Shown in pieces: positions 24,056 through 38,600 of a DNA stretch of 64,000 bases. Numbering within the stretch: position 1 is the first letter of the stretch; each line of letters begins with the position of its first letter. Under the pieces are notes generated by a model. It saw only the letters and a list, made by a program, of their open reading frames with translations, did not search any database and had not been told where the DNA came from. A program made the translations under genes and the position numbers. The DNA is from Candidatus Multivoradales bacterium (lineage in GTDB: Bacteria; Acidobacteriota; Thermoanaerobaculia; Multivoradales; JAHEKO01), in the NCBI GenBank assembly GCA_965224065.1, contig CBDCYF010000005.1, forward strand, positions 3,691,087-3,755,086, in the 5' to 3' direction.

Positions 24056-24072
24056 GTATCCTGTCACCGTAA

Positions 24073-24810
24073 CTATTCGACGTAGGGGTCGCGCAGGTCG
24101 ACGGGCGGGTGTTTGGCGCGCATCCGCAGGTTGAGCATCTCGACAAAGACCGAGAAGCCCATCGCGAAGTAGATATAGCCCTTGGGGATGTGATGGTCGA
24201 GGCCGTCGGCGACCAGGGCCATGCCGATCAAGAGCAGAAAGGCGAGCGCCAGCATCTTGACGGTCGGATGGTCCTCGACGAAATCGCCGATGGCCCGGGC
24301 GGAGAACATCATAAAGCCGACCGCGATCACCACCGCCAGGACCATGATTGCGAGATCGTCGGCCATTCCCACCGCGGTGATGACGGAGTCGAGCGAGAAG
24401 ATGATGTCGAGCAGACAGATCTGGAGGAGCACGGCTTTGAAGGTCGCTGCCACGGCGGCCGATTTCTCGCCCTCGATTCCCTCGAGCTTGTGGTGGATCT
24501 CGTGAGTCGCCTTGCCGAGGAGAAAGAGGCCGCCACAGATCAGGATGAGGTCGCGTCCCGAGATCTCGTTGCCCCAAAGGGTGAAAAGCGGGGCGGTCAG
24601 CTTGACCACCCAGGCGAGTGACGCCAGCAACGCAATCCGCATCAGCATCGCCAAAGCCAGACCGATGGTGCGGCCTTTCTGCCGCTGTTCGGGCGGCAGC
24701 TTGCCGGTCAGGATCGAGATAAAGATGATGTTGTCGACCCCGAGCACGATCTCGAGGACGGTCAGGGTGAGCAGCGCGATCCACGCTTCGGGGCTCGTAA
24801 TCCAGTCCAT
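24073..24810 (-). CDS. TerC family membrane protein
   Basis: LEIVLGVDNIIFI, DIIFSLDSVITAVG, IPKGYIYFAM. Confidence 0.93.
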   Translation of the reverse strand: MDWITSPEAWIALLTLTVLEIVLGVDNIIFISILTGKLPPEQRQKGRTIGLALAMLMRIALLASLAWVVKLTAPLFTLWGNEISGRDLILICGGLFLLGKATHEIHHKLEGIEGEKSAAVAATFKAVLLQICLLDIIFSLDSVITAVGMADDLAIMVLAVVIAVGFMMFSARAIGDFVEDHPTVKMLALAFLLLIGMALVADGLDHHIPKGYIYFAMGFSVFVEMLNLRMRAKHPPVDLRDPYVE

Positions 24811-25080
24811 AGCGGCTGGACGCTAGCAGAGTGGCTCGCGGCCGAGAGCCGGGAGCTCACCCCAAAAGCCGGTCGACGCCCCTACCCGATCGGCTGGATC
24901 TCGTCCATGCCGCGAGACGGTGACTCCCGATGGAAGGCCTGTCAACCTCCCTGGGAGGCTGGGATGAGAATCCGTAGAACAGGCGGCGGCCCCTGGCCGC
25001 CGGGGACCGGCGCCGGGGATCGGTCGGTGCTCGCCCGCTCTCTTGCCACTGCGGGCGGAACAGGAGTAGGCTGGCTTCCC

Positions 25081-25590
25081 ATGTTTGGCCGGAGGACAAA
25101 GCGCGTTTTCCACATCGTGAGCCTGGCACTTGCCGCCGCCCTGGTGCTTTTTCACCTCCGGCTGCTGTGGACGCGGCTGGCCGATGGTTCGGTGTTCGAT
25201 CCGGTGGTCGCCGCTCGCTGGCTGATGGGCCTGGCTCTGGCCGGGCTCCTGGTCGGGCTCAAGCGGCGCAACGTGTCGGTGTTGCGGGGCCGGCCGGCGC
25301 TGGTTGCCTGGCTACTCGTGATGCTGCTTCACGCCGTTGCACTGGTTCCGGGGGTGGAGGCGTCCCCGGAGGCGGAGCGGACCGCCGAGCTCCTGCTGGT
25401 CTTGCCGGCGGGACTCGCCGCTGCCGCGGTGATTGCGGCGGGCGCGGTGGTGTCGACCGCGGCACGGTGGGCATCCGGGCTCGTCCGGTCCGGTCAAGCC
25501 GTCATGCAGCCCGCGGGATCGGGGAGCGCGGTTCTGCTCGGCGCGCTCGCACCCCGAGCACCGCCCGTCCGGCGTCGATTCGGTACCTAA
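25081..25590 (+). CDS. Multi-TM leader protein with C-terminal RAPP motif (putative arrest peptide)
   Basis: About four hydrophobic segments, His in or near TMs (VFHIV, LFHLR, LLHAV), ends LAPRAPPVRRRFGT; lies upstream of a TonB-dependent receptor. Confidence 0.7.
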   Translation: MFGRRTKRVFHIVSLALAAALVLFHLRLLWTRLADGSVFDPVVAARWLMGLALAGLLVGLKRRNVSVLRGRPALVAWLLVMLLHAVALVPGVEASPEAERTAELLLVLPAGLAAAAVIAAGAVVSTAARWASGLVRSGQAVMQPAGSGSAVLLGALAPRAPPVRRRFGT

Positions 25591-25751
25591 AACCGAGCCA
25601 CGAGAACGGTAGGCCTCACTGGCCATCCGGCTCGCCGGCTTTCTCTGATCCAAGTCGGATACCGATTCAACGTATCGGGCCACGCGCTCGGCTCGGCCCT
25701 GGTGGCCGAGCGTTCCGCCCTCCATGTTTGTGCGATGACAAGGAAAATCCC

Positions 25752-28088
25752 ATGAAGGCTACCTGGAAGATACAGATACTGTTCAAGCTGACTTTGAGCG
25801 TTCTTTTTGTCGTGTCCGCGGCCGCTGCCGCGACCGCTCAGGACGCCGGCGCCGATGAGACGGCCGCCGGCAAGACAGAAGAGGCCAAACCCATGAAACA
25901 GGCGGACCCGGCACGGAGCGAAGAAGGCGACGCGCCGCTCGAGTCGTTTTTCGCCGAGACCACGGTGACCGCCACCGGTACCAGGATGGACACCTTTGAG
26001 GTCTCGACCCCGGTGAGCGTGCTCGACCGGGACAAGCTCGAAGAAAGGACGCCGCTCAACGCGTCGGACCTTCTTCGCACCGAGCCCGGGGTCGACGTCA
26101 ACGGGGTCGGCCCCAACCAATCGCGTCCGGTCATCCGCGGTCAGCGCGGTCTCCGGGTGCTGTTCCTCGAGAACGGTCTGCGGATGAACAACGCGCGCCG
26201 CCAATCGGACTTTGGTGAGACCCCCGGGTTGGTGGAGGTCGAGAGCCTCGAGGCGGTCGAGGTGGTGCGCGGACCGGCGTCGGTCCTCTACGGCTCGGAC
26301 GCCATCGGCGGTGTCCTCAACGTCATCACCCGGGCCCCCTCGTTTGGCGGTGGGCTCACCGGGTCGGCGGGTCTTCGCTTCGGCTCGGCCGGCGACGCCA
26401 CCAAAGTACATGCTTCGGCTTCCGGCGGTTCCGAGAGGATCTCCTGGAACGGGGGCTTCAGCGTGCGTAGCGCCGATGACTATGAGGCGGCCTCCGGCCG
26501 GTTTGGAGACATCGATCTCGCCGACGCCGTGCCGGTGGTCGACACCGGGCTCGACGATGACGACGTCTTTGGCCAGCTCGCCTACCAGGGCTCGGACCGT
26601 CACCAATTCTCCCTGCGGCTCAACCGCTACCGGGCCGATCAGGCCGGTTTTGGCTTCGTCGAGCCCGAGCTTTTGGAGACGATGGACGATTTTCGGATCC
26701 GGATCCTCTATCCGTTTCAGGACTTCGACCGCTATACGTTTGGCTACGTCGGCGCCGGATTCGAGTCGGTCCTTGCCGACACGCTCGAGCTCCAGGCCTA
26801 CTTGCAGAACAACGAGCGCCAGCTCGCCAACGACATCGACGTCTTCGAGCCGGCGCGGTTCCCCGGGGCCCCCGGTACTGCGGTGGCCTCGGACACGCTG
26901 AACTTCACCGATCTCGAGACATTGGGGCTCCGGCTCGAGACGGTCAAGGGCATCGCCGACAAGCACCTGCTGACCTACGGCGCCGAGTATTTCGAGGACG
27001 ACTCCTTCAACACCGACCGGTCCGAGACCACCGTGTCGCTCGTCTTCCCGGGCCCGCCCTTCGAGGTCCCGGTGGCGCATGTGGTGGACACCGTTCCCAA
27101 CTCGCCCAACGCCGTCAATGAGAGCTATGGTGTGTTCGCGCAGGCCGAGATGGCGGTCGCGGAGCGTTTCAAGGTCACCCTCGGCGCGCGCTACCAGAAT
27201 GTGGCTACGGCGGCGCGTGAGACACCCGGCTGGACCACCGCCGGTCTCGATTTCGACGACGACAGCCTGGTGGCGGCCGCCAGCTTTGTCTACCGCGCCA
27301 GCGACAATGTGCGTGTGGTGGGCTCCTACGGCAGCGCGTTCCGCGCGCCGTCGATCGTGGAGCGGCTGTTCAACGGACCGACCCCGGAGGGCATCGGCTT
27401 CCAGGTGCTCAACCCGGACCTGGTGTCGGAGGAGAGTGAGAACTTCGACGTCGGTCTCAAGTACCGGCGCAAGAATGCCCTCTTTGACATCACCTTTTTT
27501 CGCAACGACATCGACAACGGCATCATTCAAAAGTTCTTTTCACCGGCCGAGGTCGCGCGGCTCCCACAGGCGATCCGGGATCAGATCGAGCAATCCGGGG
27601 TCCAGTTTGTCGTCCAGCAGCAGAACATCGATCGGCTGCGTTACGAGGGGGTCGAGCTACGAGTCGACTATGTGACCACCGACGGCTGGTCGTGGGGCGG
27701 CAACTACACTCATCTGGACGATGAGCGTCTGGACGCGCTCAACCCGCCGACCGGCGACTCGTTTGGCGACAAGTTTCTGGCTTACACTCGCTTTGAGCCC
27801 CCGCGAGGGCGCTACTGGGTGGAGTACCGCGTGCGGCACAACGAGAGCGAGAAGGCCAATCTGCAGCTCGGAGACCCGATTCCTCCGGCGGGTGAGATCC
27901 TTCCCGCGTTTACCGTCCACTCGTTGAGCGGAGGTTTGCATTTCGGTGGCGATGCCAAACTGAGCCATCACGTGACTCTCTCCCTCGACAACGCCACCGA
28001 CGAGCTCTACGCGGAGTTCTCGAACGTCACCTTTTTCCGGCCCGAGCCGGAGCGCAACGTCGTCGTGTCGTATCGACTTGGGTACTAG
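25752..28088 (+). CDS. TonB-dependent receptor, heme/hemoglobin-receptor-like
   Basis: Signal peptide, plug (PVIRGQ, VEVVRGPASVLYGSDAIGGVLNVIT), FRAP and NPDL motifs, terminal aromatic residue; AAGGA RBS before ATG 25752. Confidence 0.9.
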   Translation: MKATWKIQILFKLTLSVLFVVSAAAAATAQDAGADETAAGKTEEAKPMKQADPARSEEGDAPLESFFAETTVTATGTRMDTFEVSTPVSVLDRDKLEERTPLNASDLLRTEPGVDVNGVGPNQSRPVIRGQRGLRVLFLENGLRMNNARRQSDFGETPGLVEVESLEAVEVVRGPASVLYGSDAIGGVLNVITRAPSFGGGLTGSAGLRFGSAGDATKVHASASGGSERISWNGGFSVRSADDYEAASGRFGDIDLADAVPVVDTGLDDDDVFGQLAYQGSDRHQFSLRLNRYRADQAGFGFVEPELLETMDDFRIRILYPFQDFDRYTFGYVGAGFESVLADTLELQAYLQNNERQLANDIDVFEPARFPGAPGTAVASDTLNFTDLETLGLRLETVKGIADKHLLTYGAEYFEDDSFNTDRSETTVSLVFPGPPFEVPVAHVVDTVPNSPNAVNESYGVFAQAEMAVAERFKVTLGARYQNVATAARETPGWTTAGLDFDDDSLVAAASFVYRASDNVRVVGSYGSAFRAPSIVERLFNGPTPEGIGFQVLNPDLVSEESENFDVGLKYRRKNALFDITFFRNDIDNGIIQKFFSPAEVARLPQAIRDQIEQSGVQFVVQQQNIDRLRYEGVELRVDYVTTDGWSWGGNYTHLDDERLDALNPPTGDSFGDKFLAYTRFEPPRGRYWVEYRVRHNESEKANLQLGDPIPPAGEILPAFTVHSLSGGLHFGGDAKLSHHVTLSLDNATDELYAEFSNVTFFRPEPERNVVVSYRLGY

Positions 28089-28794
28089 CTCTCATTCCGG
28101 TTCAACGGCGATCCGGGCGGCCGGCCTCGGCAGACGTTTTGGCCGCCACTGGGCGCTGGCTCACGTCGATCTCGAAGTGCCGGCCGGGGCCGCGCTCCTG
28201 GTGGCGGGGGCCAACGGTTCCGGCAAGACCACCTTTCTGAGGCTTGTGGCGGGTCTCCACAAGCCGACCGGCGGCTCGCTCGAGGTCTTTGGCCTCGACA
28301 CCGTGCGCGAACGGTTGCAATGCCGGCGGTGGGTCACGCTCATCTCGCACGCATCGTGTCTCTATGACGGCCTGACTCCGCGCGAGACGCTCCGCGTGTG
28401 GTCCGATCTCGGAGGCCGCCGGGGCGGGGCGCTCGCCGAAGGCGAGCTCGATCGTTTGCTGGAGGAAGCCGATTTGGGCCATCGGGGCGACGCACTGGTG
28501 GGTGGTTTCTCGGCCGGTATGCGCAAGCGTCTGTCTCTGCTGCGGTTGCAGATCGAAAGACCCCGCCTGTTGCTGCTGGACGAGCCCTTTTCCGCCCTCG
28601 ACGTCGAAGGGCGCCGCCTGGTGGAGAGATGGATCCGGCGTTTTCGCGAGCGGGGCGGCACCATCGTCATCGCTTCGCACGATCTCGAGCGCACCGTGCC
28701 CCTATGCGAACGCGCCATCCTGCTCCAACGCGGCCAGGTTGGGTGGGCGGGAAGCGCGGAGGCGGTCATCGAGCGGCGGGAGGGAGTGTCGTGA
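28078..28794 (+). CDS. ccmA: Heme exporter ATP-binding subunit
   Basis: GANGSGKTT, FSAGMRKR, LLLDEPF; precedes ccmB. Confidence 0.88.
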   Translation: MGTSSHSGSTAIRAAGLGRRFGRHWALAHVDLEVPAGAALLVAGANGSGKTTFLRLVAGLHKPTGGSLEVFGLDTVRERLQCRRWVTLISHASCLYDGLTPRETLRVWSDLGGRRGGALAEGELDRLLEEADLGHRGDALVGGFSAGMRKRLSLLRLQIERPRLLLLDEPFSALDVEGRRLVERWIRRFRERGGTIVIASHDLERTVPLCERAILLQRGQVGWAGSAEAVIERREGVS

Positions 28795-29474
28795 GCATCG
28801 TCCGGCAGATCGGGACGGTGATCCGCAAGGACCTGCGGCTCGAGTGGCGCAACCGCTCGCGCGTCCTCTCGGTGCTGCTTTTCGGGGTGGTGACTCTGCT
28901 GCTCTTCTCGTTTGCCGTCGGTCCGGACACCGCCGCCTTGCGCTCCGGCGCCGCGGGTTTTCTGATTCTGGCCCTGCTGTTGTCGTCGACTCTCGGGCTC
29001 TCGGAGAGCTTCCGCCTCGAGCAGGAGGGCGGGGCGCTGGAGGGCCTGCTGTTGGTGCCGATCGAGCCGGCGGCGCTGTTCTATGGCAAGGCGCTGGGGT
29101 CGAGCATCCTGCTCTTTCTGCTGGCGCCGGTCCTGACTCCGATGGCGCTGGTTCTCTATGCCGTCGATCTCGATCCGGAAATGATCCTGCGGCTCCTGGG
29201 CCTTTGGCTGCTGGCGGCCGCTGGGCTGGCGGCGCCCGGGACCCTGTACGCGGCGATGACCAGCCGGCTCAAGAGTCGCGACGTGCTTTTACCCCTTCTC
29301 TTGTTCCCGTTGGTGGTGCCGGTCCTGCTCGCCGGGGTTAAGGCGATGGACCTCGTCCTGACCGGAGACGCGATGTCACAACTGCCCTCTTGGGTGGCGC
29401 TTCTGCTGGTATTCGATCTCGTATACTGGAGTCTCTGTGGCGTGCTCTTCGCCTATGCCGTAGAGGAAGGCTAG
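28791..29474 (+). CDS. ccmB: Heme exporter protein B
   Basis: RKDLRLEWR, FYGK, LLPLLLFPLVVPVL. Confidence 0.9.
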   Translation: MSIVRQIGTVIRKDLRLEWRNRSRVLSVLLFGVVTLLLFSFAVGPDTAALRSGAAGFLILALLLSSTLGLSESFRLEQEGGALEGLLLVPIEPAALFYGKALGSSILLFLLAPVLTPMALVLYAVDLDPEMILRLLGLWLLAAAGLAAPGTLYAAMTSRLKSRDVLLPLLLFPLVVPVLLAGVKAMDLVLTGDAMSQLPSWVALLLVFDLVYWSLCGVLFAYAVEEG

Positions 29475-29526
29475 CCCTCACAGAGCTGCGACGCGAACCG
29501 TTCCCACTCTCGACCAAGGGCTGCTC

Positions 29527-30228
29527 ATGACGCGACCGTTCCCCAAGATACACCTGGTCGGGGCGCTCGGATTGGTCCTCCTGCTGGCCGGGAGCTGGAT
29601 CGGTCTGTTTGTGGCGCCGCCCGAGAAACACATGGGCGACGTCATGCGGATCCTCTACGTTCACGTGCCGAGCGCCTGGATCGCGATGCTCTCTTACACC
29701 CTTGCGTTCGGTTTGGCCATCTGGTCCCTTTGGACCGGCAGCTCGCGAGCCGATGCCTGGATGACCGGGGCTATCGAGACCGGTGTGGTGCTCAACGCGC
29801 TGTTGCTCATCCAGGGCTCGATCTGGGCTCGCGCCACCTGGGGGGTGTGGTGGGACTGGGACGTGCGCCTCACTACATCGCTCATCATGGTGCTGCTCTT
29901 TGCCGGAGTTCTGGCATTGCGGGCGGTGGTGGACGACGCTCAACGCCGGGCGACCTGGTCCGCCGTTGCGACGGTCGTGGCCTTTGTCGATGTGCCGCTG
30001 GTCTATTTTTGCGTTCGCTGGTGGAGGAGCCTGCACCAGGTCCAATCCAGCCCCGACACGCTCGACCCCGCCATGGTCTTGCCGTTGCGGATGAATGCCT
30101 TCGCGGTCCTCTTTCTGGCACTTTGGTGGATCTGGCAGCGGGCCGGACTCGAGCTCGCCCGGCGCAGACGGGAAGACGTCGAGGCGCCCGAGCGCATCCG
30201 TTTCGAAGGGAGCCCCGAACATGCCTGA
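29527..30228 (+). CDS. ccmC: Heme exporter protein C
   Basis: RILYVHVPSAW, GSIWARATWGVWWDWDVRLT (WWD domain), WWRSLHQ. Confidence 0.95.
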   Translation: MTRPFPKIHLVGALGLVLLLAGSWIGLFVAPPEKHMGDVMRILYVHVPSAWIAMLSYTLAFGLAIWSLWTGSSRADAWMTGAIETGVVLNALLLIQGSIWARATWGVWWDWDVRLTTSLIMVLLFAGVLALRAVVDDAQRRATWSAVATVVAFVDVPLVYFCVRWWRSLHQVQSSPDTLDPAMVLPLRMNAFAVLFLALWWIWQRAGLELARRRREDVEAPERIRFEGSPEHA

Positions 30229-30370
30229 AGGAGTGATCGCCGGCGGATGGGGTTATGTGATCGCCGCCTATTCGGTCACCGCCGTGGGGCTCATCGCCTA
30301 TACCTGGAGCCTCCGCGCGCGGCTGCGTCGAGTAAACGAAAGCGACCTGGAGAGCGATGAGCGGAGATAG
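30221..30370 (+). CDS. ccmD: Heme exporter protein D
   Basis: Small single-TM protein WGYVIAAYSVT..RARLRR between ccmC and ccmE. Confidence 0.75.
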   Translation: MPEGVIAGGWGYVIAAYSVTAVGLIAYTWSLRARLRRVNESDLESDERR

Positions 30371-30818
30371 AAGAAGGCGCCGCGTGTTTGCGGTCGTTGC
30401 CGTGCTGGTCGCTCTCGGCGCCATTGCCTATATCGCGGCCGGCGGCATCGGCGACAATCTGGTCTACTACTGGAGCCCCAGCGAGCTCAAGGAGTCCGGG
30501 GACGAAGCGGTCGGCGCCAGCGTACGGCTGGGTGGGCTGGTCGAACCCGGATCGATTCACCGCTCGCCGGATGGCTTGACCCTCGAGTTCGCGGTCACCG
30601 ACGGCACGTCGAGTGTCCAGGTGGCGACCGAGGCGGTGCCGCCGGCGATGTTTCGTGAAGGCATCGGGGTGGTGGTCGAAGGAACGCTGCGCGACGACGG
30701 CACGTTCGAGACGCGCCGGCTGATGGTCAAGCACGACAACCAGTACCAGGCGCCCGGCGAGGGCGAAGAGTACGACGTGGAGAAGCTCGTCGAGACCATG
30801 CAGTTCGAGAGCACATGA
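30357..30818 (+). CDS. ccmE: Heme chaperone CcmE
   Basis: VRLGGLV, PAMFREG..VVVEG, KHDNQY (HxxxY). Confidence 0.95.
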   Translation: MSGDRRRRRVFAVVAVLVALGAIAYIAAGGIGDNLVYYWSPSELKESGDEAVGASVRLGGLVEPGSIHRSPDGLTLEFAVTDGTSSVQVATEAVPPAMFREGIGVVVEGTLRDDGTFETRRLMVKHDNQYQAPGEGEEYDVEKLVETMQFEST

Positions 30819-32821
30819 TCTCCGGCCTCGGCCAGATCCTCGTACTTCTCGCCCTTCTGACCTGCGCCGCCGGCGTTCCGGTGGGGTTTTTCGCCGGCGC
30901 GCGGCGCTCGGCAGAGGGCCTCGCGCTGACGCGCCGCCTGGCCCTCGCGTATGCGGGTTTGATGGCCCTGGCCACCGTGGTGATGGAGTACGCGCTGCTG
31001 ACCCACGACTTCTCGGTCTCCTACGTCGCCCAGGTCGGGTCGCGCGCGACTCCGACTCACATCACCGTCGTCTCGTTGTGGTCGTCGCTCGAGGGCTCGA
31101 TTCTCTTCTGGGGACTGGTGTTGGGAGTGTTTACCGCCGCTGTGGCCTACCTGCAACGGCGCGGGCACGAGGACTATCTGGCCTACACCCTGGCAACGCT
31201 TTTTGCCATCGGCATCTTTTTCACCTATCTGATCTCCGGCCCGGCCAACCCGTTTGCCGCCACCACACCGCCGATTCCCGCCGATGGACCCGGCCCCAAC
31301 CCGTTGCTGCAGAACCACTTGCTGATGATCATCCACCCGCCGATGCTCTACCTCGGCTATGTCGGCATGTCGGTGCCGTTTGCCATGGCCGTGGCGGCCC
31401 TGCTTCGCGGCCGCCTCGGGCCGACCTGGCTACGGCCGCTGCGCAACTGGCTGCTTGTGCCGACCGGGTTTCTGTCGCTCGGCATCATGCTCGGCGGCTG
31501 GTGGTCGTACGAGGTCCTGGGCTGGGGCGGTTACTGGGCCTGGGACCCGGTCGAGAACGCCTCGTTCCTGCCGTGGCTGACCGCGGTGGCAGCGCTTCAC
31601 TCGGCCATCGTCCAGCAGCGCCGCGGCACGCTCAAGGCCTGGACGACGATCCTGGTCATGGTGTCGTTTCTACTCACCATTCTGGGGACGTTCCTGACTC
31701 GCTCCGGGGTGGTCAATTCGGTCCACTCTTTTACCCAGAGCCCGATCGGGCCGCTGTTCTTGGGATTTCTCGCCGTCGCCCTGGTAGCGGTGGTGCTGCT
31801 GCTGGCGTTTCGCATCGACACCCTGGTCTCCGAGCCACACGAGGACGCGGTGGTGTCGCGCGAAGGCGCTTTCCTGCTCAACAACCTGTTGCTCGTGGTT
31901 CTGATGTTCACGGTGCTGATCGGGACATTGTTCCCGATACTCGCCGAGGCGGTGCGCGGGGTGAAGGTCTCGGTGGGGGAGCCGTATTTCAATCGCATGG
32001 CGGTGCCGATCTGTTTTGGCCTGCTGTTGTTGATGGGGCTGGGGCCGGCGCTGCCGTGGGGCCGGCCCGACCGGGGCAGCGTCAAGCGGGCGCTGCTTGC
32101 TCCCTTGCCGGCCGCGGTCGTCGGGGTGGTCGTTGTCTGGGCTCTCGGGGGCCGGCATCCCACGCTGCTCATGACCGGCGGCCTGACCGGTTATGCGCTG
32201 TGGGTGACCCTTGGACAGGCCACCCGGCCGGCGCGTGCGCGGGCGCGCCGCGGCGACAGACTTCCGAGAGCGGTGTCGACCTCCTTCTGGCGGTCACCGC
32301 GGCTCTTGGGCGCTTACACTGTGCATTTGGGTGTGATCGTGACGTTTGTGGCCATCGCGATCTCGTCGAGCTTTCAGACCAGCCGCGAGGCGACCCTGGC
32401 GGCCGGATCCACGCTCGACATCGCGGACTACCGGCTGACGATGAACGGCGTCGGTCGTTTCGAGGAACCCCATCTGACCGCCCAGCGCGCCACCGTCACG
32501 GTGGAGAAGAACGGCAAGGCGCTCGGCGTGCTCGAGCCCGCCCTCAACTTCTATCGCACCCAGCGCGAGCCGATCGGCACACCGGCCGTCCGCACTTCGG
32601 TCACCCATGACCTCTACCTCACGGTGATGAACGTCGGCGGAGATGGAAGGGTCGGGCTGCGCGCCATCGTCACCCCGGCGGTGGTGTGGATCTGGATCGG
32701 GGTTCTCTTGATGGTCGCCGGCACCGGGTTGTGCCTGCTCCGCCCGGTCACCATGGCCGCCGCCTCGAACGTCGCCGACCCGCCGGAGCCGCCGGTCGCA
32801 GCGACGGAGAACGTGGCGTGA
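30815..32821 (+). CDS. ccmF: Heme lyase CcmF
   Basis: EGSILFW, NPLLQN..IHPP, WSYEVLGWGGYWAWDPVENAS, SVHSF. Confidence 0.96.
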   Translation: MISGLGQILVLLALLTCAAGVPVGFFAGARRSAEGLALTRRLALAYAGLMALATVVMEYALLTHDFSVSYVAQVGSRATPTHITVVSLWSSLEGSILFWGLVLGVFTAAVAYLQRRGHEDYLAYTLATLFAIGIFFTYLISGPANPFAATTPPIPADGPGPNPLLQNHLLMIIHPPMLYLGYVGMSVPFAMAVAALLRGRLGPTWLRPLRNWLLVPTGFLSLGIMLGGWWSYEVLGWGGYWAWDPVENASFLPWLTAVAALHSAIVQQRRGTLKAWTTILVMVSFLLTILGTFLTRSGVVNSVHSFTQSPIGPLFLGFLAVALVAVVLLLAFRIDTLVSEPHEDAVVSREGAFLLNNLLLVVLMFTVLIGTLFPILAEAVRGVKVSVGEPYFNRMAVPICFGLLLLMGLGPALPWGRPDRGSVKRALLAPLPAAVVGVVVVWALGGRHPTLLMTGGLTGYALWVTLGQATRPARARARRGDRLPRAVSTSFWRSPRLLGAYTVHLGVIVTFVAIAISSSFQTSREATLAAGSTLDIADYRLTMNGVGRFEEPHLTAQRATVTVEKNGKALGVLEPALNFYRTQREPIGTPAVRTSVTHDLYLTVMNVGGDGRVGLRAIVTPAVVWIWIGVLLMVAGTGLCLLRPVTMAAASNVADPPEPPVAATENVA

Positions 32822-33330
32822 ACCGCAAGGTCCTCGTCGTCGGCAGCCTCTTGACGCTGCCGTTGCTGGCGTTTCTCGCCGTCTCGTTTCGATTCGACCC
32901 GCGGTCGATCGAATCCCCGCTCATCGGCCAGCCGGCGCCCGATTTTGTGCTGACCGATCTCGACGGCAATGTAGTGAGCTCCAAGGATCTGGCAGGCCGG
33001 CCGCTGGTGCTCAACTTCTGGGCCACCTGGTGTGTTCCCTGTATGTACGAGCATCCGGTGTTTGTCGAAGGCGCTCGGCGCTATGCCGGGCGGGTGGAGT
33101 TCGTCGGAGTGGTCTATCAGGACAACGAGCGGGACATTCGCCGCTTTCTGGCCGAACGGGGCTCCTGGGGGCCATCGCTGGTCGATCCCGACACCCGGGT
33201 GGCGATCGCCTATGGTGTCTACGGGGTGCCCGAGACCTTTTTTATCGATCGGGACGGCGTCGTGGTCGAAAAGCTGGCACAGCCGGTGGACGCTGCGACT
33301 CTAGACCGCATCCTCGGGAAGCTCTTGTGA
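32818..33330 (+). CDS. ccmG: Thiol:disulfide oxidoreductase CcmG/DsbE
   Basis: LNFWATWCVPC, YGVYGVPETFFID. Confidence 0.9.
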   Translation: MNRKVLVVGSLLTLPLLAFLAVSFRFDPRSIESPLIGQPAPDFVLTDLDGNVVSSKDLAGRPLVLNFWATWCVPCMYEHPVFVEGARRYAGRVEFVGVVYQDNERDIRRFLAERGSWGPSLVDPDTRVAIAYGVYGVPETFFIDRDGVVVEKLAQPVDAATLDRILGKLL

Positions 33331-33362
33331 GGGGAAGGCTCCAGCGACCGGGAGCGGCTCTT

Positions 33363-33935
33363 ATGACGTCTACACAAGCCGCGCTTGCGGCCGGGATCTT
33401 CACGCTCGCGGTCGGCGCCGTTTTGGCGCAGACCGAGGGCGGAGCGCCCCCGCCGCCCACTGCCGTCGACCCGGAGGCGCTGATCGGCGCGCCGGACGGC
33501 CCTCCCATCACGGGCGAGATCCTCATCGAGCGCACCGAGGAGTTGTCGTCGCGTATGCGCTGTCCGGTCTGCCAGGCGCTTTCGGTCGCCGACTCGCCGT
33601 CGCTGTCGGCGCTCGCGATCAAGGAGGAGGTCCGCGATCTGCTGGCCGCCGGCTATACCGAGAGCCAGGTGATCGACTACTTCGAGCGCGCCTATGGTGA
33701 GTTCATCCGGCTGGCGCCCAAGCCCGTGGGCTTCAATCTGGTCGTGTGGTGGGCGCCGGCGGTGGCTCTCCTAGCGGGCGCGGGGCTGGTGTTTTTGCGC
33801 TTGCGGCGCCGTCCGGCCCTCAGAGAGCCGGTCGCTGCTTCTCCGGCCGGCACGGCGCCGCCGCCTGCAACCGGCGACAACGACCTGTCGGACTATCTGG
33901 AGCGCGTGCGCCGAGAGGTCGGGGGCCGGCCGTGA
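33363..33935 (+). CDS. ccmH: Cytochrome c biogenesis protein CcmH
   Basis: MRCPVCQ..SVADS, YGEFIRLAP. Confidence 0.9.
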   Translation: MTSTQAALAAGIFTLAVGAVLAQTEGGAPPPPTAVDPEALIGAPDGPPITGEILIERTEELSSRMRCPVCQALSVADSPSLSALAIKEEVRDLLAAGYTESQVIDYFERAYGEFIRLAPKPVGFNLVVWWAPAVALLAGAGLVFLRLRRRPALREPVAASPAGTAPPPATGDNDLSDYLERVRREVGGRP

Positions 33936-35364
33936 GCGGGATCTGGCTCCCCGGGCTCCTGGTTCTCGCGGCGGGCCTCGTGGGGGGCATGCTGGCGTTT
34001 CGCCGGCTCTCGCGGCGGGGGGGCGAGGCGGCCGGTCGACCGTCCGAAGGCGATCTCGAGCTCGAGATCGCCGACCTCGAGACGCGGCGAGACGACCTGT
34101 ACCGCCGGCTTCGCGGCGAGACCGGAGAAGCACTGAGCGCCGCCGACCGGGAGAACCTGGAATTGGCCGCGGCCCGCACCCTGCGTGACCTGGAGCTCGC
34201 GGAGAAGCGAGGGGAAAGGCGACGAGCGAGTGAAAAGAGCGGGAAAAAGTCCCAGCGGAAGAACGGCGAGACCGGTAAAAAGGGCGCCCGATCCGTTGCG
34301 TCCGACGCGCCCGCCGGTTGGATGGCCCGCCGCCCGATCCTGGCCGGGTTCCTGTTGGGGGCCGGCATGGTGTCGGTGGTCGGCCTGCTTTTCTACTGGG
34401 CCGTTCGCGACGCCCGGCCCGGACCACCGCCACCCCCAGCTCCGTCGGGGCAGGCGGGGACACCGGGAATCGTCGGTGCGCCGTCCGGCTCGGGGCCGGT
34501 CCATCCGGAAGCCGGTCAGGCGGCGTTGCCACCCGAGGTGCGGGCCGAGCTCGACGCGCTCGACGCGCGGATCGAGGCCGACCCCTCGGATCTTCAGGCG
34601 GTCAAGCAGCGTGCACTCCTGTCGTTGCGCTTCGATCGGTTTGTCGAAGCGTTCCGCGACTCCGAGACGATTCTTGCAGCGCTGCCCGACGACATCGACG
34701 GCACCTATATCCAGGGTGTCGTCCGTCTGGCCATGGGACAGGACGCCGTCGCCCGTGGCTGCTCGAGCGAGTCGTCGAGATGTTCCCCGACCACTTCCAG
34801 GCCCTCACCTGGTTGGGGATCCTGGACTTTCGCACGGGCGATCTGGACGCGGCGGTCGCCTATTGGGAGCGGGGAATCGAGGCCGCCGGGGGCAGTCACC
34901 CCGAGATCGAACGATTGATCGCCGAGGCGCGCCGGGTGGCGAGCCAGTCGCCGGAGTCCCGGCCGCCGGTCCAGGCGGCGGCTCCGGTAGGGGGGCCGGT
35001 AGACGAGAAAAGGACCGGCGTGTCTTCGGAGCCTCCGGCTCCGGTCACCGGTGCCTACTCGGTTCGGGTCGCGCTTGCGGCGGGAGCCGTTCCGCCGCCG
35101 GGCACCGTGCTCTATGTAGCCGTGCGCGACGGCGGGGGCGGGCCCCCGATCGCGGTGCGCCGGATCGACCGGCCGGTATTTCCGCTCGACGTCGTCGTCA
35201 GCCAGACAGATTCGATGATGGGCCAGCCGCTCCCCGAGTCGGCCACCGTCACGGCGAGGCTCGACACTGACGGTAGCGTCGCCACCCGCTCCCCCGGAGA
35301 CCTCGAGGCCGCCGGTCTGGCCGAGATCGGCGGGGCGATCGAGCTGATGCTGGCCGGGAACTGA
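33932..35364 (+). pseudogene. ccmI: CcmI/CycH-like TPR protein, frameshifted near 34757 (real or sequencing error)
   Basis: TM-coiled coil-TM-TPR in one frame; TPR continues in another frame (LLERVVEMFPDH) to a CcmI-type C-terminal domain (PPIAVRRI..FPL..DSMMG..VTARLD.DG). Confidence 0.78.
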
Positions 35365-35467: not shown

Positions 35468-35649
35468 CTAGCCTAATCTTCTCACCAAGAAACTACTGCG
35501 AAGCCGCAAATGCCTGAATCTGCTGCGTTACGCACCCGTCGGGCTCCTCAGCGTACCGACAGTACGCTTGCGTCGCCCTCGGTCGCAAGCCTTGCATCTT
35601 CGGACATTTGCGGCTTCTCGCGACGATTCCGGTGAGAAGATCAGGCTAG
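35468..35649. mobile_element. MITE-like element, copy 2 (182 bp)
   Basis: TIR CTAGCCTAATCTTCTCACC / GGTGAGAAGATCAGGCTAG (1 mismatch); core CCCGTCGGGCTCCTC..TGCGTCGCCCTC..GTCGCAAGCCTTG shared with copy 1. Confidence 0.75.
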
Positions 35650-38600
35650 CGCCAGTCACCGATCAGCTCGAACGCTGCCCAGTGAAAGGGTGCTCTCGTG
35701 GCTCTGTTGCCTTGAATGAGCTGAATCTGCGCTTCCCTCAGCGACTGGTCCTTGGTTCGGCCGGATTTGAGCTCGGTGTAGAACCGTGTCATGAGCTCCG
35801 TCGTAGAGCGGTCCGATACGCTCCAAAGCGAGGCCAGAACGGACCGTGCGCCCGCATACTGAAAAGCCCGAGCCAAACCGATCAATCCATCTCCGCCGAT
35901 TTCTTTTCCCAGCGCCGTCTGGCAGGCCGACAACGTCACCAGATCGGCATCGATGTTCAGTTTCTCGAAGATCTCCCACGCCTGGAGTAGACCGTTTTCC
36001 CGGCCCTGGCTTGCTCGGTCATCGAGGGCCAGAACCAGTGACGAATTGAGAGGAGCTTCCTCGTCGAGCACGCTATGGCTGGCAAAGTGGAGCATCCTGG
36101 CGTTACGGCCGATGACTGCGACCTGGTCCTCGGTAGCTTTTTCGCCGACAAAAATCTGAGCCTCTGAGCCCCAGAGTTTGGCGATGGCCCGAGCTTCCTC
36201 TCGGCTCTCCGGCAACGGACCGAGGGCGATTCCGCGATCGCCGGATAGAAAACCACGTAGTGCGTCGACCGGGATGCTGGACGAATCAGAGAGCCATTCG
36301 GCGGGCAGCGTCGGGTCCGCAAAGGCCGCGATCTGGATCGGCCACTTCGAACGGGCTTCTCGGCGCGATCGGGAAAGTTCTCCATAGACGGTGGCCGAGA
36401 TCACTCGGTGGAGCGGCTTCCATTCAACCAGATACTCGGTGGCCGGCTGTACCGGGTTCCCCGTGTCCCGGGCCAGAGCGGAAAAAGGCAGCGTGTGCAA
36501 AGGGCCGTCCGAGGAGATCAGGATACGTTCGGCGGACTCGATGGCGTCGGCTACCGGTGCGAGCAACAGTGCGAAAAGCGCCGCGCTCCGGGCTTGGAGC
36601 GCGGGCTCGACGTCCTCGTTGCGTCGGGAGCGCTCGATAAACGAGCGGAAAAGCGAGACTTCCCGCCTCAAGGCTTCTCGGCCGACGTCGATTCGAGTCA
36701 CCGAAAGGCCCAGCCCCGGGATTTCGGTTGGCTGCACGGCAAAGAGAAATGTCTCTTTTTCGGTTACCAGGTATGACAGAAGAAGAGTACCCGGGTCCAA
36801 GGCCCGCCGCGCCCGGCCAAGGTCGAACGGCTCGGGGTACTCCAGCGCAGCAAAACGAGGCGACTGTCGCCGAGCCGTGGTTTTCAGAAATTCGAGTCGG
36901 TTGCGAAGCTCTGTTTGGTGCTCGTGCAGCCGATCCACCTCGCCGGGTGAGCTCGTTGCGTTCAACGTGGCGAGCTGCGCTTGGGCACGGTCGTAGGCCC
37001 TCTCTATGTCCTTTCTTTCCTGCAGAAATTCTTTGGGAACTGCAGAATCGAAATCGAGTTCGCGCTCGGCCAGCAGGTTTAGCAAAGCACGGGCCCGGGA
37101 ACGCTCGACGATGTTGAAGGCATCGACAGGTCGTTCGAGCCCCAGGAGCGTGCTCGCCAATTGGTGGTAGTAGCCGAGATAGGCAGCGGCAAACTCGGCG
37201 CGCACTTCTTGCCGCCCACCCAACCGCTCGGTTTGTGCCTCCAGAGCATCGATGGCTTTCACCATCCAGTCGACCGCTTCACGGCGATCGCCACGGTCCA
37301 GTGCGATCTGGCCGAGTGCGAATAGGGACTCCGCCTCCTCAAATCGGCCTCGCAGGTACCTGCGGCGTATCTCGAGCGCTTGAAGGTGGAGGTCACGAGC
37401 CTCTTGGAGCGCGTCGCGCGACCGGGCCAGATTGCCGAGCTCGTAATAGCTTTCCGCGGTTTGTGGGTTTCCGGGCGTGTGGGCCTCGACGATCTCGATC
37501 GCACGTTTGTGAAGGGTTTCGGCCGTGGCGATCTTCCCTTGCCTGGAGGCGACAACGCCTAGGTTTTGGAGCGTAATGGCCTGGAAGGTAGTTCCCGGGA
37601 CGACCTTGTCTTGGATTGCAAGTGAGCGTTTCAACAAGGCTTCGGCCTCTTCGAGCTCACCTCGCTTGATCGCGAGGTCCGCGAGGTTATTCAGAACAAG
37701 CGCCACAGTCGGGCTTTCCGGACCGAGCTTCTCGTTGATCGCCAAGGCGCGCTTGTACAGCGTTTCCGCTGCCGGCAAATCTCCCCGGTCGCGCAGCACG
37801 ATTCCGAGACTGGTCGAGAGAGAGGCCACATTTCCACTCCCCGGGTGTCGAGCCTCGGCAACCGCTAGGGCCCGGCGGTAGTATTCTTCGGCTTCCACCA
37901 AGTTTCTGGTCGCGCGGGCCAAGGTGCCCAGGTTGCCGAGTGCGGTCTCCATGCCTCGGCTCTTTGGGGCGAGTTTCTCGACAATCGACAAGGCTCTCTC
38001 CGCGCGAGCTTCGGCCTTTTCATATGCCACTTCGCGTATCGCGACAAAGGCAAGATAGTTGAGCGAGTCGACGATCTCCAGGCCCTTCGGGGCCTTTTTT
38101 TCTTGAATCGCCAGCGCTTTTCCTATGAGTCTTTCGGCCTCACGGAACTCGCCGCGCCGAAGCGAGACCTGGCCCAGGGCCCGGAACGACTCGGCTGTGT
38201 TGAGCGATTCGGCGGACAGGCTTTGACGGATGGCGAGAGATCGGGTCAGTATCGTCTCGGCAATATCGAGTTGACCTCGCGCGCGGGCCAGCCTGCCGTG
38301 TGTTTCCAAGGCCATTGCCATCTCGGCTTCTGCCGAGCCGGCCGCTTGCCACATCTCCCCGGCTCGCTCGAACATGGCAGTGGCCTCGTCAAACCTCCTC
38401 CTACTCCTAAGCGCTCGACCTTGGTTGTAGCGGATATAGGCTTCGAGTCCGGCCCTGCCCGCGCCCGCGGCCATACTCGCGGCTTGCAAGAAGAGTTGTT
38501 CTGAGGCCTTCCACTTGGATGCCTTCGCCAACCGGGTCCCGGCCTGTTCGAGCAACCAGCAGGCCAGCTCGGTTTTATCCGATCTGCGGGCATCGAGCGC

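What the first reader, a model, noticed from the sequence alone, without database searches (positions are those of the whole stretch)
25081..35364. RAPP arrest-peptide membrane leader ahead of a heme-type TonB receptor coupled to the ccm operon
Seen: a 169-aa multi-TM ORF with three His in or near TM segments ends PRAPP (RAPP codons 25555-25566), 161 nt before a TonB-dependent receptor whose stop overlaps the predicted ccmA start; ccmA-I follow tightly. Known: RAPP/RAGP are ribosome-stalling motifs (ApdA, ApdP, SecM), and Bordetella CruR (DUF2946, CxxC + RAPP) controls a downstream TonB transporter in response to copper. Inference: this leader has no Cys at all, so it may be a new sensor class in which heme binding to membrane His residues, or insertion force, tunes stalling and links heme import to cytochrome c maturation.
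Basis: partly seen in the sequence, partly recalled or inferred. Interest (0 to 1): 0.85.

Follow-up and report, generated by a model that had tools for sequence, protein, structure and literature searches.

The report
Arrest-motif membrane leader on heme operons
A small four-helix membrane protein with two invariant histidines and a ribosome-stalling type R-x-P-P tail sits in front of an outer-membrane receptor and the cytochrome c maturation genes here, and its relatives sit in front of heme-synthesis genes, which points to a possible heme-sensing gene switch of a kind not yet described.

Summary
ORF 25081-25590 (169 aa, no Cys) carries RAPP at codons 25555-25566. Seven more codons follow, so it does not "end" in PRAPP. 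It lies 161 nt before a TonB-dependent receptor whose stop overlaps ccmA, and ccmB-I follow.

The ORF is a real gene of an unannotated Acidobacteriota family (628 representative clusters). Its features are four TM helices, invariant H25, W47, W77 and H84 (H11 is not conserved), and a variable tail of fixed length. R-[P/A/G]-P-P ends 144 of 149 representatives and never occurs elsewhere in them.

In 70 loci examined, the leader is the first gene before one of two things:
- a TonB receptor module (46 loci);
- a hemA / hemX-hemA heme-biosynthesis operon (23 loci).

One locus was cut off. ccm follows in only 3 of 23 relatives with enough sequence.

Best reading: a RAPP-class translation-arrest leader, analogous to CruR, whose membrane bis-His domain senses heme. 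Stalling, heme binding and the termination mechanism are inferred, not shown. No paper found in four searches links such leaders to heme. I rate it a new variant of a known kind, of high interest.

The parts
24811..25080 (.). Divergent intergenic region between TerC (minus strand) and the leader. The presumed promoter and 5' UTR of the leader operon lie here.
   Evidence: No sigma-70-like promoter and no Rfam family were found. The TerC-leader arrangement is kept in 5 relatives: L021, L022, L027, L036 and L043.
25081..25590 (+). Leader gene: a 169-aa inner-membrane protein with four TM helices, N-in/C-in.
   Evidence: Homologues in 37 of 61 related genomes. The profile finds 628 representative clusters. 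Positive-inside pattern. AF2 gives four long helices, pLDDT 73. No Pfam or NCBIfam family.
25153..25155 (+). His25 codon, in TM1 near its periplasmic end.
   Evidence: Invariant in 31/31 and 149/150.
25330..25332 (+). His84 codon, in TM3 near its periplasmic end.
   Evidence: Invariant in 31/31 and 150/150.
25381..25455 (+). TM4 (about residues 101-125, with conserved Pro109). This is the helix that has just left the ribosome when Pro161 is in the P-site.
   Evidence: Hydropathy by segment. The spacing from column 109 to the motif Arg has median 52 and IQR 51-54, n=130. It is 49-53 in distant loci.
25456..25554 (+). Variable, Arg/Lys-rich cytoplasmic linker (residues 126-158).
   Evidence: The sequence is not conserved but the length is. 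Net charge +4.5.
25555..25566 (+). R159-A-P-P162, the putative arrest motif. The stall is expected with Pro161 in the P-site and Pro162 in the A-site.
   Evidence: Motif counts (RPPP 103, RAPP 34, RGPP 6, RQPP 1 of 149). The stall register comes from published toeprints of RAPP peptides (PMC12992588, sections 7 and 14).
25591..25751 (+). 161-nt intergenic region. It may hold the Rho-dependent termination or pause zone. An AAGGAA Shine-Dalgarno sequence precedes the receptor ATG.
   Evidence: Intergenic lengths are 28-206 nt in 32 loci. There is a C>G excess around the leader stop. No intrinsic terminator was found. The fold z-score is -1.69.
25752..28088 (+). TonB-dependent receptor, 778 aa with a signal peptide.
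   Evidence: Plug and barrel domains. The best NCBIfam model is TIGR01785 TonB-hemin, at 218 bits against a cut-off of 316.85. Orthologues at 46-80% identity follow the leader in 30 of 31 relatives.
28078..28794 (+). ccmA. Its TTG start overlaps the receptor stop by 11 nt.
28791..30228 (+). ccmB (28791-29474) and ccmC (29527-30228).
30221..30818 (+). ccmD (30221-30370, weak match) and ccmE (30357-30818).
   Evidence: This is the only CcmE match in the genome.
30815..33935 (+). ccmF (30815-32821), ccmG/DsbE (32830-33330) and ccmH (33351-33935).
   Evidence: PF01578 matches only ccmC and ccmF in the whole genome.
33932..35364 (+). ccmI/cycH-like gene, read in two frames as assembled. The frame switches near 34757.
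   Evidence: TPR and Ig_CycH domains in the second frame. Frame analysis. The relative L036 is contiguous in one frame. The start coordinate is approximate.

Best explanation
The ORF at 25081-25590 encodes a member of an unannotated family, seen so far in Acidobacteriota, of regulatory leader proteins of the RAPP translation-arrest class.

Proposed mechanism:
1. The nascent protein inserts TM1-TM3 into the inner membrane. This places two invariant histidines (H25, H84) near the periplasmic face.
2. When the ribosome reaches R159-A-P-P162, peptide-bond formation to the last proline stalls. At that point TM4 has just left the exit tunnel.
3. While the ribosome is stalled near the end of the ORF, transcription and translation of the downstream operon go on. 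The stalled ribosome most likely keeps Rho off the C-rich 3' end of the leader mRNA, as proposed for Bordetella CruR.
4. Heme bound by the bis-His site lets TM4 pack against TM1-TM3. This pulls on the nascent chain and releases the stall.
5. The ribosome terminates and the downstream genes are shut off.

In this genome the controlled operon would be the TonB-dependent receptor plus ccmABCDEFGH(I). In other lineages it is a receptor plus a 7-TM protein, or hemA(X)CDB.

Shown here: the family, the motif, the fixed spacing, the invariant residues and the two kinds of downstream operon.
Inferred: stalling, heme as the ligand, the sign of regulation, and Rho.
For: (1) It is a real gene.
- Homologues in 37 of 61 related genomes.
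- 628 representative clusters at E<=1e-3, and 559 at E<=1e-10.

(2) The motif.
- R-x-P-P lies in the last 25 residues of 144 of 149 representatives. The x residue is only P (103), A (34), G (6) or Q (1).
- There are 0 such motifs elsewhere in 23,231 residues.
- It is present in 65 of 70 loci.
- Published mutagenesis shows the Arg is irreplaceable. Only Gly is fully permissive at x; Pro retains arrest partially (near wild type for ApdP in B. subtilis), as do Ser and Asp. An RxPP screen gave x = G, A, S or P (PMC12992588 section 7).

(3) Fixed spacing.
- TM4 Pro109 to the motif Arg has median 52 and IQR 51-54, n=130, although the linker sequence is not conserved.
- The spacing is 49-53 in other classes.

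(4) Sensor domain.
- H25 149/150, H84 150/150, W47 149/150, W77 147/150.
- The positive-inside pattern puts both His near the periplasmic ends of TM1 and TM3.

(5) Context. The leader is the first gene in all 69 loci with readable context.
- 46 precede a TonB receptor or 7-TM module.
- 23 precede hemA, or a HemX-like gene followed by hemA.
- Two genomes (G357, G385) carry one leader of each kind.
- Two receptor groups only about 26% identical to each other both match the heme/hemoglobin receptor models best.
- Negative feedback by heme gives the same sign for uptake and for synthesis.

(6) Likeness to CruR.
- Long intergenic gaps of 28-206 nt, here 161 nt against 162 bp in cruR-bfrG.
- A C>G excess from -100 to +30 nt around the leader stop: mean 0.12-0.17, against 0.08 and 0.015 at control stops.
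- Rho is present.
Against: - No experiment or RNA data exist for this locus; no RNA run was listed.
- RPPP, the commonest form, was only partly arrest-competent in ApdA and in E. coli ApdP. As a polyproline it may be relieved by EF-P (recalled).
- The C>G excess is only about twice that at receptor stops. It is partly forced by the Pro, Arg and Ala codons.
- The predicted unmasking of the Shine-Dalgarno sequence by a stalled ribosome is weak: mean +0.06, with 11 of 31 loci up and 2 down.
- The receptor scores below the curated heme-receptor cut-offs. It has no His between its FRAP and NPDL boxes and no invariant plug His.
- Two His alone do not prove heme. The AF2 model is moderate (pTM 0.40), has no fold match, and I could not read its coordinates.
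- If heme shuts the operon off, the only ccm genes of this genome would also go off, unless an internal promoter exists.
- A strongly conserved 170-aa domain could also have a function as a mature protein.
- The loci come from related genomes and are not independent.
Confidence: 0.55

Rival explanations
1. It is an arrest leader, but the ligand is a metal ion (iron, copper or another) bound by the two histidines, as in the copper-related RAPP leaders. It would then control a metal-uptake receptor.
For: - RAPP/RGPP small ORFs are enriched upstream of TonB receptors and metal-homeostasis genes. A four-TM Streptomyces arrest peptide has a predicted His/Met copper site (PMC12992588 sections 13 and 14).
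- CruR is copper-responsive.
- The substrate of this receptor is not established.
Against: - 23 of 69 loci head hemA or hemX-hemA operons.
- Only two conserved candidate ligand residues (H25, H84) were found, and none is Cys or Met: 53 of 149 members have no Cys.
- 0 of 31 members match DUF2946 or any other Pfam family more than once.
- The receptor scores 49 bits on the TonB-copper model against 218 on TonB-hemin.
- Iron control usually moves heme uptake and heme synthesis in opposite directions (recalled). One leader type implies one direction.
Confidence: 0.12
2. It is an arrest leader that reads only mechanical force from membrane insertion (Sec/YidC capacity or proton-motive force), with no small ligand. 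It would be a monitoring substrate like SecM, MifM or ApdA.
For: - The spacing between TM4 and the motif is fixed.
- There are TM segments upstream of the motif.
- Known RAPP peptides of this kind exist.
Against: - None of the 69 readable contexts matched a sec or yidC gene. They matched TonB receptor or hem genes, the only queries used.
- Invariant His and Trp inside the helices are not needed for an insertion sensor.
Confidence: 0.08
3. It is simply a mature membrane protein that handles heme, such as a small b-type cytochrome, a chaperone or a receptor accessory. Its C-terminal R-x-P-P would be a structural or docking motif with no regulatory role.
For: - The 125-residue membrane domain is strongly conserved.
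- Its size is well above that of classical leader peptides.
- It is co-located with heme genes.
Against: - The x residue is limited to P, A and G (RQPP once), residues reported as permissive or partly permissive for arrest.
- The motif sits 1-14 residues from the stop and never elsewhere.
- The linker length is fixed although its sequence is free.
- It is always the first gene and is followed by a long gap.
- A mature function and a regulatory function could coexist.
Confidence: 0.15
4. It is a chance ORF in G+C-rich DNA with a chance RAPP.
For: Many overlapping spurious ORFs occur in this window.
Against: - Conservation at protein level across classes of the phylum.
- 559 clusters at E<=1e-10.
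- Invariant residues and conserved synteny.
Confidence: 0.01

Closest known systems
CruR (Bp2923, DUF2946) of Bordetella pertussis
   Same: - First gene of an operon with a TonB-dependent transporter.
- C-terminal RAPP.
- A conserved ligand-binding motif at a fixed distance from RAPP.
- A long structured intergenic region (162 bp there, 161 nt here).
- A C>G-rich region near the 3' end.
- The published model is ligand-relieved arrest leading to Rho termination (PMC9426467: abstract, sections 10 and 11).
   Different: - CruR is a secreted protein with a signal peptide, a DUF2946 domain and a CXXC copper site.
- This family has four TM helices, two His, often no Cys, and no DUF2946 match (0 of 31).
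- Its partners are heme-type receptors and hem operons, not copper genes.
- RPPP is its commonest motif.
ApdA / ApdP / ApcA and other Sec/YidC-linked RAPP arrest peptides
   Same: - An R-A/G-P-P core near the C-terminus.
- An N-terminal localisation signal or TM segment.
- A position upstream of the regulated gene (PMC12992588 section 7; PMC10987492 passages).
   Different: - Those peptides monitor the protein export machinery and precede secDF or yidC.
- This family precedes receptor and heme genes.
- It has a conserved multi-helix domain with invariant His.
[quoted passage not shown]
   Same: - Four predicted TM segments and a C-terminal RAPP/RGPP.
- Conserved His or Cys proposed as ligand sites.
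- Arrest was shown in vitro for these proteins (PMC12992588 section 14).
   Different: - They come from a different phylum.
- Their downstream genes are a metal-related gene, a thioredoxin-domain protein and ECF sigma factors.
TonB-dependent heme/hemoglobin receptors (TIGR01785/TIGR01786; ShuA, PhuR, HemR)
   Same: - Plug plus 22-strand barrel.
- These are the best-scoring subfamily models over the full length.
- Plug-level similarity to PhuR and ShuA chains.
- FRAP and NPDL boxes are present.
   Different: - Scores are below the curated cut-offs.
- There is no His between the boxes and no invariant plug His among 25 orthologues.

Membership tests
RAPP-class translation arrest peptides | An R-[A/G]-P-P core (or a partly permissive x) close to the C-terminus | tested here: met
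   RAPP at residues 159-162 of 169. The family has RPPP 103, RAPP 34, RGPP 6 and RQPP 1 of 149. The permissive set is taken from PMC12992588 section 7.
RAPP-class translation arrest peptides | An N-terminal signal sequence or TM segment(s) | tested here: met
   Four hydrophobic segments with a positive-inside pattern. AF2 gives four long helices.
RAPP-class translation arrest peptides | Encoded upstream of, and on the same strand as, the regulated gene | tested here: met
   All 69 loci with readable context.
RAPP-class translation arrest peptides | Ribosome stalling at the motif, abolished by Arg-to-Ala | not testable with these tools
   This needs in vitro translation, toeprinting or a reporter assay.
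CruR / DUF2946 | DUF2946 domain | tested here: not met
   0 of 31 members match it at E<=1. No Pfam hit for P0001.
CruR / DUF2946 | Invariant CXXC motif | tested here: not met
   P0001 has no Cys. 53 of 149 representatives have none.
CruR / DUF2946 | C-terminal RAPP and a downstream TonB transporter | tested here: met
TonB-dependent heme/hemoglobin receptor (TIGR01785) | Score at or above the curated cut-off | tested here: not met
   218.4 bits against 316.85. Distant receptors score 154-169 bits.
TonB-dependent heme/hemoglobin receptor (TIGR01785) | A conserved His between the FRAP and NPNL boxes, and a plug His (this feature is recalled from the literature, not taken from a call) | tested here: not met
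   There is no His in residues 534-562. The only invariant His among 25 orthologues is H739.
System I cytochrome c maturation (Ccm) | ccmA, B, C, D, E, F, G and H present in one cluster | tested here: met
   The ccmD match is weak. The ccmI-like gene is frame-split.
Sec/YidC monitoring substrates | The downstream gene encodes a Sec or YidC component | tested here: not met
   The downstream genes are TonB receptor, 7-TM or hem genes.
Known small heme-binding membrane families (HemJ/UPF0093, cytochrome b561-type) | A match to the family profile | tested here: not met
   No such Pfam hit in 31 members at E<=1. No PDB fold match at E<=0.001.

The most novel reading that the evidence does not exclude
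This would be the first heme-sensing nascent-chain switch. A membrane-embedded bis-His domain would read heme at the periplasmic face of the inner membrane while the protein is still being made. It would convert heme binding into release of an R-x-P-P ribosome stall. One reusable module would then tune outer-membrane heme import, heme biosynthesis (hemA) and, in this lineage, cytochrome c maturation. All three raise the heme supply on the periplasmic side.
Probability: 0.4. Interest if true: 0.9.

Novelty: new variant of a known kind. Interest (0 to 1): 0.8.

Why it matters
- Known ligand-responsive bacterial arrest peptides sense amino acids, antibiotics, export capacity or copper. None is known to sense heme. 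How bacteria outside the model groups feed back on hemA and on heme uptake is poorly understood.
- This family gives a sharply defined and testable candidate: two histidines, one arginine, one fixed spacer and two kinds of target operon.
- It sits in Acidobacteriota, a dominant soil phylum with few described regulatory mechanisms.
- It extends the CruR principle from a soluble Cys site to a membrane His site.
- It shows that RPPP, not only RAPP and RGPP, can be the preferred natural core. Surveys keyed on RAPP/RGPP would therefore miss about two thirds of this family.

Tried and rejected
- Rfam scan of 24000-28200: no riboswitch or known RNA. The only match was a chance snoRNA at E 0.66.
- Promoter and terminator scan of 24700-25900: nothing in the intergenic region.
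- Fold of 25540-25770: z-score -1.69, unremarkable.
- Test for a SecM-type unmasking of the Shine-Dalgarno sequence in 31 loci: mean gain in accessibility 0.06, inconclusive.
- Foldseek of the leader model against the PDB: no match at E<=0.001.
- ESM Atlas for the leader: only unnamed Acidobacteriota clusters.
- Word-indexed homologue searches: only 'hypothetical protein' names.
- PDB sequence search with the receptor: mainly plug-domain matches (CirA, PhuR, ShuA, BtuB), not decisive for the substrate.
- Structure and fold search of the 7-TM neighbour protein: a confident 7-helix bundle, but only generic GPCR-like matches at E>=0.011. It has no Pfam or NCBIfam family.
- Sequencing-run search: no RNA holder was listed.
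- Complex prediction was not used, because no protein-protein binding is claimed.
- Clustering of flanking ORFs was muddied by shadow ORFs and showed no further universal neighbour.
- Of the 36 context loci fetched for relatives, 5 gave no leader hit by tblastn at 1e-5 (L039, L041, L044, L055, L056). I left them out of the leader counts. L041 and L044 still contributed to the 7-TM gene count.
- Literature: four searches and a term search inside PMC12992588 (heme, hemA, glutamyl-tRNA, cytochrome and porphyrin all 0) found no report linking RAPP leaders to heme. Supplementary files, including the gene-group tables of PMC12992588, were closed and may list members of this family.
Full report
OBSERVATION. 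It runs from ATG 25081 to the stop at 25588-25590 and encodes 169 aa. It has His at residues 11, 25 and 84 and no Cys. R159-A-P-P162 occupies codons 25555-25566 (cga gca ccg ccc). Seven residues (VRRRFGT) follow, so the protein does not literally end in PRAPP.

A 161-nt gap (25591-25751) separates it from a 778-aa TonB-dependent receptor at 25752-28088, which has a signal peptide and Plug and barrel domains. The only standard start for ccmA is TTG 28078, 11 nt before the end of the receptor's TAG. Pfam/NCBIfam identify ccmB, C, E, F, G(DsbE) and H. ccmD at 30221-30370 matches weakly. The ccmI/cycH-like gene is split between two frames near 34757, whereas the relative L036 reads it in one frame.

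IS THE LEADER A REAL GENE? Yes.
- A six-frame search finds it in 37 of 61 related genomes, including 29 of 36 in the same family.
- A profile built from 31 aligned sequences (A1) finds 628 representative clusters at E<=1e-3 and 559 at E<=1e-10 among 1.84 billion proteins.
- No Pfam or NCBIfam model matches.
- Every named database homologue is called 'hypothetical protein'.
- The ESM Atlas returns only unnamed, mostly Acidobacteriota clusters.

In an even sample of 301 genomes of the phylum, the profile hits 14. These fall in the window's own order and in four families of other classes. The distribution is therefore patchy.

ANATOMY.
- Across 150 representatives (none more than 50% identical to another), H25 is kept in 149, H84 in 150, W47 in 149 and W77 in 147. 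Position 11 is mostly Arg.
- Charge counts follow the positive-inside rule. The N-terminus is +4.0, loop 2 is +3.9 and the tail is +4.5. Loops 1 and 3 are slightly acidic.
- This gives four TM helices with both ends in the cytoplasm. H25 and H84 each lie five to six residues from the periplasmic end of TM1 and TM3.
- AF2 gives four long helices at moderate confidence: pLDDT 73, pTM 0.40. There is no PDB fold match.

After TM4 comes a basic tail whose sequence is free but whose length is fixed. From the conserved TM4 proline (column 109) to the motif Arg the median is 52 residues, IQR 51-54, n=130. The spacing is 49-53 in distant hem-linked and receptor-linked members.

The tail ends in R-x-P-P in 144 of 149 representatives: RPPP 103, RAPP 34, RGPP 6 and RQPP 1. 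The motif lies 1-14 residues before the stop. Of the five exceptions, two have LPPP and three look truncated. R[AGP]PP never occurs in the other 23,231 residues of these proteins. The control A[AGP]PP occurs 4 times in the tails and 5 times elsewhere.

WHY THE MOTIF POINTS TO ARREST. These points come from PMC12992588 (I read the outline and sections 7, 8, 13 and 14):
- In ApcA, ApdA and ApdP the Arg is irreplaceable.
- Ala can be replaced by Gly with equal or better arrest. Pro, Ser and Asp retain arrest only partly; for ApdP in B. subtilis the Pro variant was close to wild type.
- A random screen recovered RxPP with x = G, A, S or P.
- The stall places the third residue in the P-site and the fourth in the A-site.

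The natural spectrum of x in this family is P, A and G, apart from one RQPP. All three residues were reported as fully or partly permissive. The same paper reports that small RAPP/RGPP proteins are enriched upstream of TonB-dependent receptors, that almost all of those have a signal sequence, and that CruR arrests in vitro. The class 'RAPP ORF before a TonB receptor' is therefore already in print. A four-helix bis-His form is not mentioned in the text I could read. The words heme, hemA and cytochrome do not occur in its main text. Its supplements were closed.

CONTEXT. I examined 70 loci.

(a) The window.

(b) 31 loci from relatives of the same order. 36 were fetched, and 5 with no tblastn leader hit were set aside.
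- In 30 of the 31 an orthologous receptor (46-80% identity) follows on the same strand. The 31st contig ends too early.
- In about 20 of them, a 7-TM protein of about 245 aa lies between the leader and the receptor.
- ccmA-H follow the receptor in only 3 of the 23 loci that have at least 3.7 kb beyond it: L027, L036 and L043.

(c) 9 loci from other classes.
- All 9 keep R-x-P-P.
- 6 precede a receptor only about 26% identical to the window's. In 4 of these the 7-TM gene comes after the receptor.
- 3 have no receptor. They precede hemA, hemC, hemD and hemB, or a Cytochrom_C_asm (HemX-like) gene (Pfam).

(d) 17 further loci from one of those families, where 18 of 19 genomes have the leader.
- 14 precede hemA, which starts 86-191 nt after the leader stop.
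- 3 precede a receptor.

(e) 12 further loci from two other families.
- 4 precede a HemX-like gene followed by hemA.
- 2 precede hemA directly.
- 1 precedes the 7-TM gene.
- 4 precede the distant receptor type.
- 1 is cut off by the contig end.

Totals: 46 receptor or 7-TM contexts, 23 heme-biosynthesis contexts, 1 unknown, and no other kind. R-x-P-P is present in 65 of the 70. Two genomes (G357, G385) have two paralogues, one of each context. These genomes are related to one another, so the counts are not independent events.

WHICH LIGAND? Heme is the best common denominator of the three kinds of downstream gene.
- Both receptor groups, although only about 26% identical to each other, score best on the heme/hemoglobin receptor models. 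The window's scores 218 bits, and the distant ones 154-169 bits. The next-best models score 122 bits for the window's receptor and 76-79 bits for the distant ones.
- All of these scores are below the curated cut-offs (317 and 324).
- The receptor lacks a His between its FRAP (residue 530) and NPDL boxes.
- Among 25 orthologues there is no invariant Cys or Met and only one invariant His, H739.

'Heme-type' is therefore a lead, not a classification.

Two axial His in a helix bundle, with conserved Arg (R32, R71) and Trp nearby, fits a heme b site. This is inference. A metal site would normally need more ligands, and none is conserved. Under iron control, heme uptake and heme synthesis usually move in opposite directions (recalled knowledge). 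One leader type before both operons implies the same direction, which is what end-product feedback by heme gives.

HOW THE STALL COULD ACT ON THE OPERON.
- The gaps after the leader are long: 28-206 nt, mostly 110-160, and 161 nt here. The downstream genes have their own Shine-Dalgarno sequences.
- There is no intrinsic terminator and no known RNA family.
- The computed unmasking of the Shine-Dalgarno sequence by a stalled ribosome is weak.
- A C>G excess spans about -100 to +30 nt around the leader stop in all 31 loci of the own order. It is also seen in 21 of 22 hem-linked and 13 of 13 distant receptor-linked loci. The means are 0.12-0.17, against 0.079 at receptor stops and 0.015 at 7-TM gene stops. 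Part of this excess comes from the Pro, Arg and Ala codons.
- Rho is present.

This matches the CruR model (PMC9426467: abstract, sections 10 and 11). In that model a ribosome stalled at RAPP shields a C>G rut region. Ligand-induced folding relieves the stall, and Rho then terminates in a 162-bp intergenic region. That paper also reports that the spacing between the ligand motif and RAPP matters.

I therefore favour a CruR-like route, at about 60% given that arrest occurs. When Pro161 is in the P-site, residues 126-161 fill the tunnel and TM4 has just emerged. This is the position at which helix insertion or packing can pull on the chain (recalled from force-profile studies). The fixed spacer is what such a mechanism predicts.

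A DIFFICULTY. In this genome the only CcmE and the only CcmC/CcmF-type genes lie behind this receptor, and ccmA overlaps the receptor's stop. If heme shuts the operon off, cytochrome c maturation would go off too, unless a promoter lies inside the receptor gene.

One coherent reading is that the sensor reports heme at the periplasmic face. Import, synthesis and Ccm-mediated export all raise that pool, so all three would be switched on when it is low. This is speculation.

VERDICT.
- The motif, two of the three His, and the receptor linkage are conserved.
- The heme idea is independently reinforced by the hem-operon contexts.
- The ccm coupling is specific to this lineage.
- Stalling, heme binding and control of the downstream genes remain untested.

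My confidence estimates:
- real conserved gene with a selected C-terminal R-x-P-P: about 0.97;
- it acts as a translation-arrest regulatory leader: about 0.75;
- the ligand is heme or a close tetrapyrrole: about 0.5;
- the full model as stated: 0.55.

I class it as a new variant of a known kind: a RAPP-class, CruR-like leader with a new membrane bis-His sensor domain, a likely new ligand and a new target, hemA.

Noticed in passing
L021:3147-3887 (+) and 23 other loci; not in the window: A 7-TM protein of about 245 aa belongs to the module. It has no Pfam or NCBIfam family, and its AF2 model is confident (pLDDT 88.5, pTM 0.83). It lies between the leader and the receptor in most relatives, and after the receptor in distant classes. 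It was not found in the window's own genome with this query.
   Followed up: partly
L023, L026, L031, L034, L037, L044, L045, L051, L053, L054: In 10 of the 24 loci that have the 7-TM gene, its frame runs into the receptor gene without a stop. This gives ORFs of about 1000 aa that keep an internal signal-peptide-like segment. It may be a fusion cleaved by signal peptidase.
   Followed up: partly
window 33932-35364, switch near 34757: The ccmI/cycH-like gene is read in two frames as assembled. The relative L036 has both parts in one frame. This is a true frameshift or an assembly error.
   Followed up: partly
window 28078-33935: This cluster holds the only CcmE and the only CcmC/CcmF-type (PF01578) matches in a genome that is 99% complete. 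No System II gene was found with these models.
   Followed up: yes
L099 and L102 (G357); L103 and L109 (G385): Two genomes carry two leader paralogues each. One precedes hemA or hemX-hemA. The other precedes a TonB receptor or the 7-TM gene.
   Followed up: partly
L078, L103, L104, L105, L107: In one family a Cytochrom_C_asm (HemX/CcsA-like) membrane protein sits between the leader and hemA. L078 also has an 825-aa ORF with ALAD at its C-terminal end.
   Followed up: no
window 24073-24810 (-): A TerC-family gene lies divergently upstream of the leader. This arrangement is kept in 5 relatives. No manganese-riboswitch-type Rfam match was found in the shared intergenic region.
   Followed up: partly
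window 35646-39017 (-) and 15696-18659 (+): A 1123-aa TPR and CHAT-domain protein lies just after the ccm cluster on the other strand. Upstream there is a 987-aa Ser/Thr kinase fused to an FGE-sulfatase-like domain.
   Followed up: no
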